Of a stretch of DNA of 64,000 nucleotides, positions 12,892 to 29,024 are shown one piece after another. The notes under the pieces were generated by a model. It had not been told where the DNA came from. It did no database searches and worked only from the letters and a program-made list of their open reading frames with translations. How positions within the stretch are numbered: the first letter of the stretch is position 1; each line of letters opens with the position of its first letter. The DNA is taken from positions 1-64,000 of the IMG/VR virus record IMGVR_UViG_3300031998_000009. The stretch is one strand, 5' to 3'. A program made the translations under genes and the position numbers. This DNA is from a virus (lineage: Duplodnaviria > Caudoviricetes).

Positions 12892-13644
12892 TTATTCGTT
12901 AAAAACCATTCTAGACTCCACATACGCTCTGTCCTGTGTGAAGATAGGAATTTCCGTGTCAATATGCCACTTGTTATCATCTAATTTTATACAGCAACTA
13001 CCTCGTTTCTGTTCCGTAGGTAGATCATTCCAATTAATTCCTTTTTCAGTAAATAGTTTATCTTGTAGTTTTTTAGTATTCAAACCCTGCAATTCTTTAT
13101 GAGGGAATAGGGATTGTGCTAGGGCTTGAATAGAATTTCTAGTAGCATCTTGCTGTCTCCAAATAAGACAATTTACTACTTCGTGAGTAGGTATTGAAAA
13201 TGCTCTGGAGTCAAATAGTGCTAATTGTAAAGATTTCTTCTGAAGAAGTGACCATCTAACAGGATCTTTTTCTATAGAAGCTAAAAGTTTAATCTCGTTG
13301 TTAAAAACAACAGAAGCTAGTGATGCCGAAATGGAAACCATCTTTTGTAGATTATAAGAAAACCAAGCATCTGTATCCAGTTTCTGCCAATCACAAAGAA
13401 CAAGAGTAATTTCGTCTGATTGTGTATATCCAAGAACACAACCTTGTACCTGTTTACATAACTCCATCATAGTTGCTTTCATACATCTAGACAATGTTTC
13501 GTCAAACGGTCTATCAAAACCTCTTGTATATGTATGAAATGCTTTACCATCTAGTCTAATAATAACGGGCATCCGTCTCATTAAAAACAGTTTAGGAACG
13601 GCTTCATATTGCTTCATTCTATCTCCGATAGTTGTTTTATCCAT
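12892..13644 (-). CDS. thg1: tRNA(His) guanylyltransferase Thg1-like protein
   Basis: GDRMKQYE, IRLDGKAFH, YTQSDEI, FDSR and WRQQDATRNSI motifs. Confidence 0.92.
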   Translation of the reverse strand: MDKTTIGDRMKQYEAVPKLFLMRRMPVIIRLDGKAFHTYTRGFDRPFDETLSRCMKATMMELCKQVQGCVLGYTQSDEITLVLCDWQKLDTDAWFSYNLQKMVSISASLASVVFNNEIKLLASIEKDPVRWSLLQKKSLQLALFDSRAFSIPTHEVVNCLIWRQQDATRNSIQALAQSLFPHKELQGLNTKKLQDKLFTEKGINWNDLPTEQKRGSCCIKLDDNKWHIDTEIPIFTQDRAYVESRMVFNE

Positions 13645-14078
13645 TACGTTTTCCTCCTAATTACTTTTGTTAAAATAAAATTATCGTATTCAACATCAAC
13701 GGAAATGTTCTCGTTTACTGTAAAAACGCCAAATCCAATTAAATTTGTAGGATTACCCTTATATCTATTCAATTCAAAAATGGGAACTGAATAGATATAA
13801 CAATTCATATCTAGCATTGATTTAATAAATTTACCACTTTTCGTATCATAGACATTAAATTCTATACAGTCTTCGATAGATCTGTTATTAAATTGTATTT
13901 TTGTAATCGGACCTACTATGTCAACTGGCATGCAGTTTGGATTATCATAGACCCGTACAAAACCATTCTCTATTGCCTCTACGAAAGACATATCGGACAC
14001 GAAATCATTAAATATATCTTTATAAGCATTTCTTACAAATAAAGGAACTTTAATATTGCAAATTAAAGGTTTCTTCAT
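13644..14078 (-). CDS. Hypothetical protein, possible degenerate T4 gp21-type protease domain
   Basis: IEFNVYDTKSGKFIKSML resembles IEFLDTECGRIISELL of 27592..29004 and the gp21-family DTPxGxI motif. Confidence 0.4.
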   Translation of the reverse strand: MKKPLICNIKVPLFVRNAYKDIFNDFVSDMSFVEAIENGFVRVYDNPNCMPVDIVGPITKIQFNNRSIEDCIEFNVYDTKSGKFIKSMLDMNCYIYSVPIFELNRYKGNPTNLIGFGVFTVNENISVDVEYDNFILTKVIRRKT

Positions 14079-14081
14079 CAG

Positions 14082-14858
14082 TTACCCTTTCTTCAAAGAA
14101 TCCATAAGCTGGCAATATTTAATCTTTGTTTTATTCAATTCAAGGTTATCCGTAAGACCACCTATATGTCTTAAACTAGATAAACATTTTCTTGGAAACA
14201 AGATTAGGTTACTTATGTCATAGTTCATCACATTTCCATCTAGGTGTAAGATAATACAGTCATCCGGGACTTTACCATAATAACTTTCCCACACCTTGAC
14301 ACTAGCTGCATCTAGGTTTATATCAATTCCTTTACCATTAGCTCTTTTTGTATATACACAAGGTAACCCATGTCGGATAACGATATCACCATTCTTATAC
14401 TTTTGTGCTTTATCTATTAAATGTTGAATTACTTTTTCTTTAGATTCTTTTGTGAAATGTTTCCAATATTCGGAACCGTGTAAACCTTTTTGCCAAGATC
14501 TATTACCTGTTTCAAATTTACCAGTCTGAAAACTGTGTAACCCTCTTTTATTACACCATGTTTTCATACCATTCACGGTATAGTTAGTACCGAACTTTTC
14601 ATTAAATAGTTTAGTGAGTTCTTTTCTTGGCATACAGTTATAATGTTCCATTATGAACTGAACTTGTTCTTCTGTCATATTTCTACTTGATAATGCTGTA
14701 ATATTATGATAGTAACACCATTTCCTAATTTGTTTTTGTGTTTTATTCTCGTTGAACTTTTCATTAAATAGTCTAGTTAAAACAGAATATTGTAGTGTAG
14801 GTGCCTTTGTAATAAGAAACTCTGTCTGTTCTTTTGTATAAGTATCTGCTGTTGACAT
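14082..14858 (-). CDS. HNH-family protein with tandem helical repeats (HNH possibly degenerate)
   Basis: Two YTxEQxxF..LTxLFNEKF repeats; VWESYYGKVP..ILHLDGN..NYDISNL. Confidence 0.7.
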   Translation of the reverse strand: MSTADTYTKEQTEFLITKAPTLQYSVLTRLFNEKFNENKTQKQIRKWCYYHNITALSSRNMTEEQVQFIMEHYNCMPRKELTKLFNEKFGTNYTVNGMKTWCNKRGLHSFQTGKFETGNRSWQKGLHGSEYWKHFTKESKEKVIQHLIDKAQKYKNGDIVIRHGLPCVYTKRANGKGIDINLDAASVKVWESYYGKVPDDCIILHLDGNVMNYDISNLILFPRKCLSSLRHIGGLTDNLELNKTKIKYCQLMDSLKKG

Positions 14859-24573: not shown

Positions 24574-25173
24574 TTATTTCCAATTCATTTTCTGTTTTAA
24601 TTCAGCTTTATGTAGTTCTGTAAGAAGTTCGTTCCTTAAATATACCAAGAAATTGGCGTATGCCAACACTTGCATAGGAAGCGAATTTTTCCAAGGTTCG
24701 ACACTACTTAGATTTTGATTTAACCAATTTAGACAATCTTCTTTAAGACGAAAGAAATGAATTCCATTAGAACAGGTTGCTTTTGGATTTGTATCGAACA
24801 TATCTGAAGCGATCTCTTTATTTCTTGTATATATTGTATAGTTATAGTTAGTTACAACATCAATATATTCCTCGTGGTCAAATCCGGCTTGTAATGATTT
24901 ACATATCTCATATACAGAATAAGTAGAATGAAGATGTTTTCTAGTTGTTAGTAAAACGGTTTCTATTACAATTTTGTTATTTTCTATAAATCTATGAAAG
25001 TCTAAACAATATGTTTCCTTCACAATAGCTTTTTGACATCTACATTTTTGATAATCACGTTCATTTTTCTGATAAGGGATGACTATTTCTGTACCTTTTG
25101 GAATCTCCAACTCTACCAGGTATAATTTCCATCTATCCTGGTCATAACCTATCGTTATTTTGTAACCTATCAT
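24574..25173 (-). CDS. DUF5758-like protein (array copy 3)
   Basis: MIGYK..LEIP..KCRCQKA..TCSNGIHFF. Confidence 0.75.
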   Translation of the reverse strand: MIGYKITIGYDQDRWKLYLVELEIPKGTEIVIPYQKNERDYQKCRCQKAIVKETYCLDFHRFIENNKIVIETVLLTTRKHLHSTYSVYEICKSLQAGFDHEEYIDVVTNYNYTIYTRNKEIASDMFDTNPKATCSNGIHFFRLKEDCLNWLNQNLSSVEPWKNSLPMQVLAYANFLVYLRNELLTELHKAELKQKMNWK

Positions 25174-25696
25174 AATTAAACCCCTTTCGTAGTAACTCGT
25201 TTGATCTCCGGATTATAGATCGTGCCCAACTATCCTCATAATATATATCAGGATCGTTATAAAAGTGTCTTGCTTCGACTTCCTGATAAAAGAAATGTAT
25301 ACCATTGGCACATTCTTCTTTTATGTTCTCATCTAAAGAATCTGGATAAATATAATCGAATGATGATGCTGTATAATGAAATGCATATTTATCTAACCAC
25401 ATTTGTATAGGAGTTATGGATTTTCTTATTTGATAATGTGCGGGATCATTAATAATTAAACCTAGTATGTATAAAGAAAATCCAAAATTAACAGACTTAC
25501 CGATTTCTAAATCGGTAATAGAGCAAACTCTACATTTATTACAGCGTAGTTTATTGCTATACGTAGGTATTGATAATGGATTATTGTTATATGTAACAGG
25601 AGTCACTATTTTGGCATCTTCAGGAATTTCTAATTTTATTAGACATGGTTTCCAGATATTATTGTCCATATAGGCTGCTATTTTATAACCTATCAT
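25142..25696 (-). CDS. DUF5758-like protein (array copy 2)
   Basis: MIGYK..LEIPEDA..KLRCNK..ECANGIHFF. Confidence 0.75.
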   Translation of the reverse strand: MIGYKIAAYMDNNIWKPCLIKLEIPEDAKIVTPVTYNNNPLSIPTYSNKLRCNKCRVCSITDLEIGKSVNFGFSLYILGLIINDPAHYQIRKSITPIQMWLDKYAFHYTASSFDYIYPDSLDENIKEECANGIHFFYQEVEARHFYNDPDIYYEDSWARSIIRRSNELLRKGFNYDRLQNNDRL

Positions 25697-26213
25697 ATGT
25701 TTCCTCCTGGCAAATATAAAAATTAAGTTGTTTCATAATCGAAACTGCCCAATCTGTAGACTTACAATAATCTTTAGCATCCTGTTTAGTTAGAAAGAAA
25801 TGTATACCTTCTCCGCATTCACAGAATTCGGATTTGTTTATTTCTTCTAAACAAATAGATTTTTCCGAGGGTTTATAAACACCTCCTGGATAGTTTTCTA
25901 CATAGTGTTCGATAGTTAGATGTGGACGAAATTTAATCTGTTTACTATATTTACTTATGATAGTTTGAATAACAAAAAGTGAATAGGCTTCCGGAACAAA
26001 GTCTCCAGATTGTAAATCTTCGATGGTCATTACCCTAGCTTTATTACAACGATGTTTCTTACTCTTAACTCTAGATTGTTCTTTCATCATCCAGGAATTA
26101 GGTGTATATGGATGAATCACAGTGGCATCATCTGGAATATATAAAGTAACAATGCAAGGTTGAAAATAAGTACCATCATAATAAGCTGCAAGTTTATATC
26201 CAATCATGTACAA
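25683..26213 (-). CDS. DUF5758-like protein (array copy 1)
   Basis: MIGYK..LYIPDDA..KHRCNKA..ECGEGIHFF. Confidence 0.75.
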   Translation of the reverse strand: MYMIGYKLAAYYDGTYFQPCIVTLYIPDDATVIHPYTPNSWMMKEQSRVKSKKHRCNKARVMTIEDLQSGDFVPEAYSLFVIQTIISKYSKQIKFRPHLTIEHYVENYPGGVYKPSEKSICLEEINKSEFCECGEGIHFFLTKQDAKDYCKSTDWAVSIMKQLNFYICQEETYDRL

Positions 26214-26219
26214 ATCACC

Positions 26220-27440
26220 TCATTTTTTATTTGTATATAACTCTAATATATCCTCGAAAGATTTACCTTCCATAACAGATAACTGAACATCTGTGAATGT
26301 TATATTTGATGAGACGTGTTTGCTATTGGGTAGATGCTTATTGAAATGATGTACAAGAAAATTATCAAAAGCTTCATCACAAACATATCCGATTTCAACT
26401 TTCTTATCGATTCTACCTGTCCTAATAATAGCTGGATCGATTCTATCGATATGATTAGTTGTGAATATCCATATTACATTATCTAGAGCCGTTACACCGT
26501 CTAGAAAATTTAAAAAATCTGATGTTGTATGTTTTGTATATTGTTCGGGTATATCACAAACTTTGTTTCTGTTCACAAGAGGACAAGTATCTATGTCTTC
26601 GATAACAATTAATTTCAATTCTTTGTGAAAATCAGAATCATTAAATTTATAGTCGATGAAGTTAGATACAGCACTAGCAGGAACAAAATACGGAACTATA
26701 TTAAAATGATTCGAAATAGCATAAATCAAGGAGGTTTTTCCAGAACCTGGAGGTCCATAAAATATAAAACCATAATGATACGGTATATTATGTTTGATAT
26801 ACCAATTCTTATTCGATAGAAAAGATTTTGTCGATCTTATTATATTTTCCTTTGTTGTATTTGAAAGAAATACATCCTGAAAGGTTCTGGAAGGTTTTGT
26901 AAAAAATTTCTTGAAATACTCACACCCAGACAAAACGTAAAACGACGTGCTTTTCTGACTATTCCGTTTCTTTTTATCCTGTTTAGCTAGATAAGATATA
27001 AAGTTTTTCAGCAACTGGACACACCTTTGATTGTTTATTGTACTTAATGTGATAACTTGGGTGTTCTTAATAGCATTCCCAATATCTATGTTTATTATAA
27101 TAGGTACATTTTGAAAAATGTATATATCTGTTATGGGGTGATTGACATAATCCTCTATTGTTCTATAAACTGATTTTCTAACACCTCCAACAATATTAGC
27201 ATTAATAGGTAGATGTTTAAAGTAAGTAACTAATGTATCCCATTCAAGAAAGCTAACTATGGATGTGACATTGACCGTATATAATATTCTAGATTTTATA
27301 ATTTCAATAAATTGATTCTTTATACTGTTCGTTAAAATGGAGCTGGTAAATCTATGTATAACAGGATTAACAATATCTTGTGTAATATCAGTTGTTTCCG
27401 AACACTTCGTAGGATTAGACATTGTATCGACCTCCAACAC
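26220..27440 (-). CDS. BCS1-like AAA+ ATPase
   Basis: GFIFYGPPGSGKTS Walker A, IVIEDID Walker B, LNFLDG, TTNH..IDPA..R.GRID second region of homology. Confidence 0.85.
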   Translation of the reverse strand: MLEVDTMSNPTKCSETTDITQDIVNPVIHRFTSSILTNSIKNQFIEIIKSRILYTVNVTSIVSFLEWDTLVTYFKHLPINANIVGGVRKSVYRTIEDYVNHPITDIYIFQNVPIIINIDIGNAIKNTQVITLSTINNQRCVQLLKNFISYLAKQDKKKRNSQKSTSFYVLSGCEYFKKFFTKPSRTFQDVFLSNTTKENIIRSTKSFLSNKNWYIKHNIPYHYGFIFYGPPGSGKTSLIYAISNHFNIVPYFVPASAVSNFIDYKFNDSDFHKELKLIVIEDIDTCPLVNRNKVCDIPEQYTKHTTSDFLNFLDGVTALDNVIWIFTTNHIDRIDPAIIRTGRIDKKVEIGYVCDEAFDNFLVHHFNKHLPNSKHVSSNITFTDVQLSVMEGKSFEDILELYTNKK

Positions 27441-27591: not shown

Positions 27592-29004
27592 TTATAGAAT
27601 CCTTTTCATAATTTGTTTTGTGTTTACATCCATCATAAACTGTTCAATTCGTTTCATATCAGGTTTATCCGGAAGTACTGAGTGTTCTTTAGCGTAGTCA
27701 AGTCTAGATTCATAATCATGTACTAGGTCAAAGAACTCCTTATTAGGTCTCCCATCACTTCCAAGATATTTACCGTTACGAATATTCATGAGTAAATCGT
27801 GTTCTTTTTCTCTATATGTATTAATCTCACCACGAAGTAACATATCTTCACACATCATATAGAGTCTTAACAAGTGCATGGAATGTTTAGCAATTTTACC
27901 GTGAGCCATTGCTTTTTCATTTCGTTGACTATTCTTCCTATAATCACGAAGTGTTGTATTAATGGAACCTAGAACTCCTGCAAGACTTTCTGCTGGATAA
28001 CTCTTAATGTTAAAATCAAAAACAATTTCTCCATTTTCAAGTCTTACATCAATACCGTTCATATTGTGTTGCTGTTCAAGCATATGTCTCATACCTTGAA
28101 TTGTTTTTACAATATGGGCATTTAATTGTTCTTCTGTAAGAGCTACCAGAGCTTTCTGCTGTAATCTATACATCTGTGAATTAGCATATCCCATAAACGA
28201 ACTAATACATCTATTGGAAAGGAACATATCCTTGTTTGATAGTAATTCTTTTCCTATATCGGACAAGTACAAATAATGTTCCGATTTAAGACCTAACATT
28301 TCAATAGTGTTAGGGTTACAATTCGTCAACAAACTAACAATCTTTTTAAGAGAATAAATTGTGGTATCTGTAGGTTCGTTAATAACTTGTTCAAACCCTT
28401 TACCTAACAGAATATCTTCTGGACTATGTAGTGCAATTCCTCTAATATCTACATCAGAAGTTTCTACATTTGTACCGTAAGCATATGATCCACCTAATCC
28501 AAGAAGAATTAAATTATTCAATTCAGGTGTTGTGTTCAAGAAATTATAATCTCTATAGTCTACATGAATTCCTAATTCGTCTAATTTAGCTTGAACAAGT
28601 TGTGCCCTTGACTTTGTTTCAGGGTAAGGTTCAACACCGAAACCAGTTAGTCTGAAGTCACTACCCACAGTTCCATTGCTTTCCAAATAACCTGTGCCCA
28701 TTGTATAAAAATGTAGGTTTGTTCCTAGTTTGAGCAGCTCACTAATAATTCGACCACATTCTGTATCCAGAAATTCTATATCGGCATATACATTTTTATT
28801 TTCGATATACATATCTTTAATAACAGCTGAAGCATGGGTCATATCCTGTAAAGTAACATCGTCTAGATTAGGTTCATAGAATACAAACATACTCGTTTCT
28901 AGTTCTTTGAATTGTTTAACCATTAGTTCAGCTGTTTCTTTTGTATAAACATGGTGTTGTCTTGTAGGTGTTTCTAATTCTAATACAGGAACTTTTAAAA
29001 GCAT
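27592..29004 (-). CDS. Fusion of a degenerate T4 gp21-type prohead protease domain and an RlaP-type (Pol-beta superfamily) nucleotidyltransferase
   Basis: C-terminal GGSYAYG..SDVDIRG, NPNTIE, KHSMHLLRL. N-terminal ~125 aa follows the gp21 layout (VY.KE, HASAVI, IEFLDTECGRI, MGTG.L, DFRL) without the catalytic His/Ser motifs. Confidence 0.75.
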   Translation of the reverse strand: MLLKVPVLELETPTRQHHVYTKETAELMVKQFKELETSMFVFYEPNLDDVTLQDMTHASAVIKDMYIENKNVYADIEFLDTECGRIISELLKLGTNLHFYTMGTGYLESNGTVGSDFRLTGFGVEPYPETKSRAQLVQAKLDELGIHVDYRDYNFLNTTPELNNLILLGLGGSYAYGTNVETSDVDIRGIALHSPEDILLGKGFEQVINEPTDTTIYSLKKIVSLLTNCNPNTIEMLGLKSEHYLYLSDIGKELLSNKDMFLSNRCISSFMGYANSQMYRLQQKALVALTEEQLNAHIVKTIQGMRHMLEQQHNMNGIDVRLENGEIVFDFNIKSYPAESLAGVLGSINTTLRDYRKNSQRNEKAMAHGKIAKHSMHLLRLYMMCEDMLLRGEINTYREKEHDLLMNIRNGKYLGSDGRPNKEFFDLVHDYESRLDYAKEHSVLPDKPDMKRIEQFMMDVNTKQIMKRIL

Positions 29005-29024
29005 AATACTTATCCTCCTAATAA

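What the first reader, a model, noticed from the sequence alone, without database searches (positions are those of the whole stretch)
27592..29004. Apparently inactive T4 gp21-like prohead protease domain fused to an RlaP nucleotidyltransferase
Seen: residues ~1-125 follow the gp21/peptidase S77 layout (VYTKE, THASAVIKDM, IEFLDTECGRII, MGTGYL, DFRL), but GELxHP is replaced by FYEP and SSRG by YTMG, so the catalytic His and Ser are missing. The rest is an intact-looking Pol-beta-superfamily nucleotidyltransferase (GSxAYG, SDxD). Known: RlaP-type enzymes are linked to RNA end repair and ligation. Inference: the inactive protease domain either directs the enzyme to the prohead for packaging or acts as a decoy for host sensors of head-assembly proteins. 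I know of no description of this fusion.
Basis: partly seen in the sequence, partly recalled or inferred. Interest (0 to 1): 0.8.

Follow-up and report, generated by a model that had tools for sequence, protein, structure and literature searches.

The report
Dead head-protease domain fused to RNA-repair enzyme
A large uncultured phage makes one protein that joins a catalytically dead copy of the head-maturation protease to an intact RNA-end repair enzyme; the fusion is real and rare, and it may help show what a widespread, undescribed family of dead mini-proteases does.

Summary
ORF 27592-29004 (-) encodes 470 aa.

- **N-terminal domain (residues 1-127):** it folds as the T4 gp21 / peptidase S77 core (AF2 pLDDT 92; 5JBL Z 14.0, rmsd 2.3 A over 125 aa). 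It lacks the catalytic His and Ser, and also the Arg and Asp that are invariant in active relatives.
- **C-terminal domain (residues ~129-470):** a complete RlaP (PF10127) nucleotidyltransferase with GGS, D184, D186 and D213 intact.
- **The fusion is not an artefact.** A second assembly from another sample carries the same 470-aa ORF in the same gene order (90% nt identity). dN/dS is 0.20 for the N-domain and 0.05 for the enzyme.

New here:

- The N-domain is not a decayed copy of the phage's own protease (a 572-aa protease-scaffold gene elsewhere in the genome). It nests inside a large family of free-standing 115-170-aa dead S77 mini-proteins from big phages.
- This scan had already met that family in at least four other genomes.
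- The fused form turned up only twice. The closest enzyme relatives (71-76% identical) stand alone.
- A second, very diverged S77-like ORF sits directly upstream of the phage's Thg1 gene.

Function is untested. My best guess (0.35) is a non-catalytic adaptor that joins S77 protease assemblies and tethers the repair enzyme to the prohead. The complex predictor was not available.

The parts
27592..29004 (-). Whole fusion gene, 470 codons plus stop
   Evidence: same 470-aa ORF in L002 from another sample
29014..29019 (-). Shine-Dalgarno AGGAGG, 9 nt upstream of the ATG
   Evidence: read directly from the sequence
28624..29004 (-). Dead S77 (gp21-like) protease core, aa 1-127
   Evidence: A1 family profile E 7.8e-43
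28873..28875 (-). E44, at the place of the catalytic His (YEP where active proteases have DHP)
   Evidence: hhalign; no His in aa 36-50
28705..28707 (-). Y100, at the place of the catalytic Ser (FYTMG where active proteases have xSSRG)
27595..28620 (-). Complete RlaP-family nucleotidyltransferase, aa 129-470 (free-standing relatives of 340-355 aa begin here)
   Evidence: AF2 pLDDT above 90 for aa 130-470
28486..28494 (-). G171-G172-S173 nucleotide-binding motif
   Evidence: invariant in 49 relatives
28447..28455 (-). D184-x-D186 metal-binding carboxylates
   Evidence: invariant; three conserved Asp are required in RlaP
28366..28368 (-). D213, third catalytic Asp
   Evidence: invariant
13644..14078 (-). 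Probable second, highly diverged S77-like protein (144 aa, DNP where DHP is expected); its TAA overlaps the ATG of Thg1
   Evidence: ESM Atlas structure TM 0.62-0.65 to S77 clusters; A1 profile E 0.0098 among 1295 ORFs, second best in the window; hhalign in the correct register but weak; junction read
12892..13644 (-). Thg1 tRNA-His guanylyltransferase, translationally coupled to the 144-aa ORF
   Evidence: PF04446 E 1.4e-30; phrog_4717 E 4e-90

Best explanation
This is a genuine two-domain protein. It arose when a gene of the 'dead mini-S77' family became joined, with no linker, to the start of a complete RlaP gene.

The C-terminal enzyme does the chemistry. As shown for bacterial RlaP, it adds one or two nucleotides to damaged RNA or tRNA 3' ends so that they can be religated, here by the phage's own 733-aa Pnkp-Rnl1 protein.

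The N-terminal domain cannot cut peptide bonds and acts as a protein-binding module. My preferred reading, which is inferred and not shown, is this: the domain keeps the ability of S77 proteases to assemble with one another (T4 gp21 is a pentamer in the scaffolding core). It therefore joins the phage's active protease-scaffold protein and tethers the repair enzyme to the prohead interior. The enzyme would then be packaged and delivered with the DNA into the next cell, ready to counter host nucleases that cut tRNA.
For: Shown here:
- S77 fold without the catalytic residues.
- Intact RlaP motifs.
- The fusion is present in two assemblies from different samples at 90% nt identity.
- Purifying selection on both parts, with omega 0.20 for the N-domain and 0.05 for the enzyme.
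- No internal start codon, so the enzyme is made only as the fusion.
- The phage has an active S77 protease-scaffold of 572 aa.
- The phage also has a Pnkp-Rnl1 ligase and Thg1.
- A 76%-identical RlaP in a related 213-kb contig directly follows a Pnkp-Rnl1 gene.
- The residues kept between the dead and active families are the Tyr of NGRIY and the LDTPxG and GxG motifs, while the catalytic ones are lost.

From the literature:
- RlaP adds 1-2 NMP to RNA 3'-OH.
- gp21 is a pentamer, about 55 copies sit in the T4 core, and packaged core proteins such as IPI and Alt are injected.

Inferred: that the dead domain binds the active protease, and that the protein is encapsidated.
Against: - The domain matches only gp21 residues 38-172. 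It lacks the terminal regions and the long scaffold part that should anchor this phage's own protease in the core.
- The gene lies in an accessory block about 140 kb from the protease gene.
- The closest enzyme relatives (71-76% identical) work without the domain.
- Most family members are free-standing and carry no cargo.
- To my knowledge, no packaged RNA-repair enzyme has been reported.
- No binding test could be run.
Confidence: 0.35

Rival explanations
1. The dead S77 domain is an accessory or regulatory subunit of RNA-end nucleotidyltransferases in this phage. It docks on the enzyme, or oligomerises it, and tunes its activity or partner choice. It has nothing to do with the capsid.
For: - Two S77-like modules in one genome each sit immediately 5' of an RNA-end nucleotidyltransferase. 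One is fused to RlaP; the other has its stop overlapping the Thg1 start.
- There is no linker: the last S77 strand ends at aa 126 and the enzyme begins at about aa 129.
- The first 30 enzyme residues are as constrained as the rest, omega 0.045.
Against: - Close RlaP relatives lack the domain and have no S77-like neighbour.
- Thg1 genes in three other phages have no such neighbour.
- Free-standing family members sit next to unrelated genes.
- In a 595-kb phage, RlaP and the dead copy are 33 kb apart.
- The domain is acidic (pI 4.6), so direct RNA binding is unlikely.
- The S77 assignment of the 144-aa ORF is only moderately supported.
Confidence: 0.25
2. The fusion is a recent and nearly neutral accident. 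A stop codon was lost between two adjacent genes, each part keeps its own separate job, and being joined adds nothing.
For: - Only two sequences have the fusion among 5.8 billion clusters searched.
- Both parts have many free-standing relatives.
- The junction is a simple end-to-start join.
Against: - The fused state has persisted through dS of about 0.3-0.4 with purifying selection on both halves.
- The parallel arrangement of the 144-aa ORF and Thg1 would be a coincidence.
Confidence: 0.2
3. The dead domain is an anti-defence module aimed at immunity that watches the prohead protease. It either shields host tripwire loops from cleavage or poisons free protease in the cytoplasm. The fused enzyme is a passenger.
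For: - Preprints report that CBASS CD-NTases are switched on when gp21-type proteases cleave I/LxE loops, and that escape mutations map to prohead proteases.
- The family sits among accessory genes of large phages that each also have an active S77 protease.
- The half of the domain that held the active-site loop evolves faster, omega 0.36-0.46 against 0.10.
Against: - CBASS activation needed the protease active site, so a dead copy is not a classical decoy.
- This gives no reason for fusing an RNA-repair enzyme.
- Nothing was tested here.
- The host and its defence systems are unknown.
Confidence: 0.15
4. The fusion is an assembly chimera or a sequencing frameshift.
For: The genome is a metagenomic contig.
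Against: An independent assembly from another run (Logan DRR452109) has the same uninterrupted 470-codon ORF and the same neighbours. It differs by 67 synonymous and 29 non-synonymous codons and has no indel.
Confidence: 0.02

Closest known systems
T4 gp21 prohead protease (MEROPS/Pfam S77, PF03420; PDB 5JBL)
   Same: Same core fold: Z 14.0, rmsd 2.3 A over 125 residues. It shares the Tyr of NGRIY and the LDTxG and GxG motifs. The family-level profile match is 99.9% probability.
   Different: It has no catalytic His or Ser and lacks the invariant Arg and Asp. It lacks gp21 residues 1-37 and 173-212 and has no scaffold extension. It falls below the Pfam cut-off. The gene lies in an accessory block, not the head module.
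RlaP nucleotidyltransferases (PF10127; PfRlaP and PaRlaP, T4 NrdC.11)
   Same: The Pfam match is above the cut-off. The GGS motif and three catalytic Asp are present, followed by a helical C-terminal domain. The phage also encodes an RNA ligase, and a close ortholog is adjacent to Pnkp-Rnl1.
   Different: It carries a 127-aa N-terminal pseudo-protease domain that was seen in no other RlaP. In this genome the ligase gene is 54 kb away.
Unnamed family of free-standing dead mini-S77 proteins of large phages
   Same: The N-domain is a member: profile E 7.8e-43, and it nests in the dead clade with support 0.87. It has the same size, the same lost residues and the same kind of accessory-gene location.
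   Different: Here it is covalently joined to an enzyme. 126 of the 150 listed hits are free-standing proteins of 175 aa or less.
T4 capsid-targeted core proteins (IPI-III, Alt, with an N-terminal targeting peptide)
   Same: These would be the functional analogue if the packaging reading is right: an N-terminal tag that brings an enzyme into the scaffolding core for injection.
   Different: The T4 tag is a peptide of about 10 aa that gp21 removes, not a folded 127-aa domain. No cleavage site can be assigned here.

Membership tests
Peptidase S77 (gp21-type prohead protease) | gp21/assemblin-like core fold | tested here: met
   5JBL Z 14.0, rmsd 2.3 A, 125 aa; Foldseek E 1e-5; Atlas TM 0.83
Peptidase S77 (gp21-type prohead protease) | Pfam PF03420 score above the gathering cut-off | tested here: not met
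   11.1 bits against 27, E 0.28. The link is made through phrog_207 (E 6.6e-9) and through profile-profile comparison.
Peptidase S77 (gp21-type prohead protease) | Catalytic His (GELxHP) and Ser (SSRG) | tested here: not met
   E44 or L47 at the His site and Y100 at the Ser site. Among the active relatives aligned, 15 of 17 have the His and 15 of 17 have the Ser.
Peptidase S77 (gp21-type prohead protease) | Gene in the head-assembly module, next to scaffold and capsid genes | tested here: not met
   The neighbours are hypothetical proteins and an AAA ATPase. The true protease-scaffold gene lies at genome position ~170 kb.
RlaP (PF10127) | Pfam score above the cut-off | tested here: met
   62.7 bits against 23
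RlaP (PF10127) | GS motif and three catalytic Asp | tested here: met
   G171-G172-S173, D184, D186 and D213 are invariant in 49 relatives. The requirement is stated.
RlaP (PF10127) | Genomic association with RNA ligase genes | tested here: inconclusive
   Pnkp-Rnl1 is present in the genome but 54 kb away. A 76%-identical ortholog is directly adjacent to Pnkp-Rnl1 in a related contig.
RlaP (PF10127) | Adds NMP to RNA 3'-OH | not testable with these tools
   Needs a biochemical assay.
Dead mini-S77 family (unnamed) | S77 core only, catalytic His and Ser lost, Tyr of NGRIY and LDTxG kept | tested here: met
   Profile E 7.8e-43. Only 1 of 126 short members keeps both His and Ser. The N-domain nests in the dead clade.
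T4-type capsid-targeted core proteins | N-terminal targeting peptide removed at an I/LxE site; protein present in virions | not tested
   Four I/LxE motifs occur in 470 aa, about the number chance would give. The one near the junction (L141-D-E) lies in the enzyme's own N-terminal helix. No virion data exist.

The most novel reading that the evidence does not exclude
Dead S77 modules are adaptors that load nucleic-acid end-repair enzymes into the phage head by co-assembling with the active protease pentamers. Here the cargo would be RlaP by fusion, Thg1 through the coupled 144-aa protein, and perhaps a DNA ligase in another genome. The phage would then inject a ready-made tRNA-repair kit together with its DNA.
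Probability: 0.15. Interest if true: 0.8.

Novelty: new variant of a known kind. Interest (0 to 1): 0.55.

Why it matters
- **A handle on an unexplained family.** Free-standing dead copies of the head protease are common in large phages. I found no paper describing them, and nobody knows what they do. A natural fusion to an enzyme of known chemistry gives a handle: wherever the dead domain goes, an assayable nucleotidyltransferase goes with it.
- **If the enzyme is found in virions,** this would be a new way of targeting proteins to capsids and the first packaged RNA-repair enzyme that I know of.
- **If instead the domain interferes with the protease,** it would bear on the recent report that bacterial CBASS immunity senses phage protease activity.
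- **Practical point.** The domain could be tried as a tag for loading cargo into T4-like heads.

Tried and rejected
No binding prediction exists for any pair.
- **The search for related loci** with family alignments A1 and A2 failed because no stretch was conserved enough. As a result, the contexts of family members come from only nine look-ups.
- **A mixed alignment for the full-length fold** misplaced the short family. The full-length model built on an enzyme-only alignment left the N-domain at low confidence, so it says nothing about whether the domains dock.
- **Foldseek of the full-length model** found only weak Pol-beta-type matches such as kanamycin nucleotidyltransferase and HalB. No RlaP structure is in the PDB copy.
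- **Recent duplication of the phage's own protease** is rejected. Identity is only 28% over 53 aa, and the tree places the N-domain inside the dead family.
- **General linkage of the dead family to RlaP or Thg1** is rejected.
- **An RNA-binding role** is disfavoured by pI 4.6.
- **A cleavable linker** is not supported. There is no linker, and the I/LxE count is what chance would give.
- **BLASTP and default HMMER** did not link the 144-aa ORF to the N-domain. Only unfiltered HMMER and structure comparison did.
- **Literature searches** for inactive prohead-protease paralogs, or for an S77-nucleotidyltransferase fusion, found nothing relevant.

Full report
**What is there.**
- The window is the first 64 kb of a 198.5-kb IMG/VR phage contig, about 86% complete, with ~32% GC and almost all genes on the minus strand.
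- ORF 27592-29004 (-) encodes 470 aa. AGGAGG lies 9 nt before the ATG.
- There is no in-frame ATG, GTG or TTG around codons 120-145, so the enzyme part can only be made as the fusion.
- The gene sits in a tightly packed run of small unknown genes. A 58-aa ORF and an AAA ATPase follow it.

**N-terminal domain.**
- PHROGs assigns aa 1-122 to phrog_207, head maturation protease (E 6.6e-9). Pfam S77 alone is not significant (E 0.28).
- An exhaustive HMMER search of 1.84 billion representatives with aa 1-140 gave 176 hits at E below 1e-3.
- Of the 150 listed, 126 are free-standing proteins of 175 aa or less. Most of the 24 longer ones are evident active proteases or protease-scaffold fusions.
- I aligned 113 sequences as A1 (the N-domain, its counterpart in the relative P0002, and 111 short family members). 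103 of them hit phrog_207 and 62 hit PF03420.
- Profile against profile, this family matches active S77 proteases with 99.9% probability, E 1.7e-35 over 131 columns.
- With A1 as its alignment, AlphaFold2 gives pLDDT 92.4 and pTM 0.84.
- The top structural match is T4 gp21 (5JBL): Foldseek E 1e-5, TM 0.76; VIA Z 14.0, rmsd 2.3 A over 125 residues. Herpesvirus assemblins come next at Z 6-8.
- The ESM Atlas's own model agrees, with TM 0.83.
- The model covers gp21 residues 38-172 only.

**Catalytic residues.**
- The phage's own active protease (572 aa, protease plus scaffold, at ~170 kb) has GELDHP and VSSRG and matches 5JBL by sequence.
- Against it, the N-domain has E44 (hhalign) or L47 (MAFFT) for His77.
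- It also has Y100 for Ser133, M102 for Arg135 and G123 for Asp160.
- The Arg and the Asp are invariant in the active set.
- Among 126 short family members, only one keeps both the His and the Ser.
- What the dead family keeps is the Tyr of NGRIY and the LDTxG and GxG motifs.

**Origin of the N-domain.**
- In a FastTree phylogeny of 151 sequences, the 22 catalytic-looking proteins group together: their common ancestor holds 23 tips.
- The N-domain nests in a 10-member clade of dead proteins with support 0.87.
- It is only 28% identical to the phage's own protease over 53 aa.
- So it is a member of an old dead family, not a fresh duplicate.

**C-terminal domain.**
- PF10127 RlaP E 5.6e-17 and phrog_388 E 2.6e-52.
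- More than 6000 relatives exist. The closest (71-76% identical) are free-standing proteins of 340-355 aa on phage contigs of 180-230 kb.
- They align from about residue 129 onward, so the S77 core (last strand 118-126) abuts a whole enzyme with no linker.
- G171-G172-S173, D184, D186 and D213 are invariant. These match the three essential Asp described for RlaP.
- AF2 models aa 130-470 at pLDDT above 90.
- A preprint shows that RlaP adds one or two NMP to RNA 3' ends and is needed to restore badly damaged tRNA.
- This phage also encodes a 733-aa kinase-phosphoesterase-Rnl1 protein and Thg1.
- A 76%-identical ortholog lies directly after such a Pnkp-Rnl1 gene in a related contig.

**Is the fusion real, and how common is it?**
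- A 3.3-kb contig from a different run (DRR452109) has the same 470-codon ORF, the same flanking genes and 90% nucleotide identity, with no indel.
- dN/dS is 0.20 for aa 1-135 and 0.05 for the rest.
- Within the N-domain it is 0.10 for aa 1-77 and 0.36 for aa 78-131.
- No other fused form appeared in either large protein search.
- No S77-like ORF lies beside the closest RlaP relatives.
- GenBank phage RlaP proteins also lack the domain.

**The wider family.**
- Members sit among accessory or nucleotide-metabolism genes, never in head modules. Neighbours include thioredoxin, dUTPase, RNase T, NADAR, Band_7 and VWA.
- Two huge uncultured phages (595 and 735 kb) each have two hits to the family profile. 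One is a dead copy; the other lies in a longer open frame (229 and 811 aa), which I take to be the active protease although I did not check its catalytic residues.
- In one of these phages, RlaP is 33 kb from the dead copy.
- Earlier reports of this scan describe the same kind of mini-protein in four other genomes.
- One unverified note describes a DNA ligase with such an N-terminal domain.
- I found no paper on any of this.

**A second copy.**
- BLASTP and filtered HMMER see nothing.
- The ESM Atlas model of the ORF matches several S77 clusters at TM 0.62-0.65 over about 120 residues.
- Unfiltered HMMER with the A1 profile gives E 0.0098 among 1295 ORFs, the second-best hit in the window.
- hhalign places its YDNPN on GELDHPE in the correct register.
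- Its TAA overlaps the ATG of Thg1.
- Thg1 genes in three other phages have no such neighbour.
- So within this one phage, two S77-like modules each precede an RNA-end nucleotidyltransferase.

**How it may work.**
- Shown: the enzyme half is intact and the protease half is dead but constrained.
- Inferred: the dead half is a binding module.
- T4 gp21 is a pentamer built into the scaffolding core, and core proteins are injected with the DNA. I therefore favour co-assembly with the active protease, which would carry RlaP into the head (0.35).
- Against this: the scaffold and terminal regions are missing, the gene sits in an accessory block, the closest orthologs lack the domain, and no binding test was possible.
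- Rivals are an enzyme-accessory role (0.25), a near-neutral fusion (0.20), and interference with protease-sensing immunity such as CBASS (0.15).
- On the last of these, the CBASS report says activation needs the protease active site, which argues against a simple decoy.

**Verdict.** This is a new domain architecture built from two known folds, one of them belonging to an undescribed but widespread dead family. The function of the dead domain remains open.

Noticed in passing
window 13644-14078 (-) with 12892-13644 (-): A 144-aa orphan ORF with a probable S77-like fold (DNP in place of DHP). Its stop overlaps the start of Thg1, and the Thg1 ribosome-binding site lies inside its 3' end.
   Followed up: partly
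G000:C1 about 82.4-84.6 kb (L017:1291-3492, -), outside the window: A 733-aa single protein joining a polynucleotide kinase (AAA_33), a Metallophos phosphoesterase and a T4 Rnl1-type RNA ligase. With RlaP and Thg1 it makes a full tRNA-repair kit.
   Followed up: partly
L021:1786-5065: In a related 213-kb phage contig, the 76%-identical free-standing RlaP gene overlaps the end of a 741-aa Pnkp-Rnl1 gene. This is the classic repair cassette that is split apart in the present genome.
   Followed up: partly
window 26220-27440 (-): An AAA ATPase (PF00004, phrog_7485) lies two genes downstream of the fusion. In MT836204 the RlaP gene is also followed directly by an AAA ATPase, but the two ATPases share only generic similarity (26% identity).
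   Followed up: partly
window 24574-26213 (-): Tandem paralogs that begin MIGYK. The two I scanned (24574-25173 and 25683-26213) match phrog_9562, which has no known function.
   Followed up: partly
L012:5872-6765 (LR756511.1): A 297-aa member of the dead family with a hydrophobic, signal-like N-terminus and an unknown C-terminal extension of about 140 aa. Other members (P0082, P0091, P0127) have N-terminal extensions. Fusions of the dead domain are therefore not limited to RlaP.
   Followed up: no
window 14082-14858 (-): An HNH endonuclease (phrog_1891, E 7e-37) lies directly upstream of the 144-aa ORF and Thg1 pair, so this block may be mobile.
   Followed up: no
L001:295-2013 (-), genome about 168.6-170.4 kb: The phage's active protease is fused to a long coiled-coil scaffold (572 aa, phrog_207 over nearly its full length), so protease and scaffold are one polypeptide.
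   Followed up: yes
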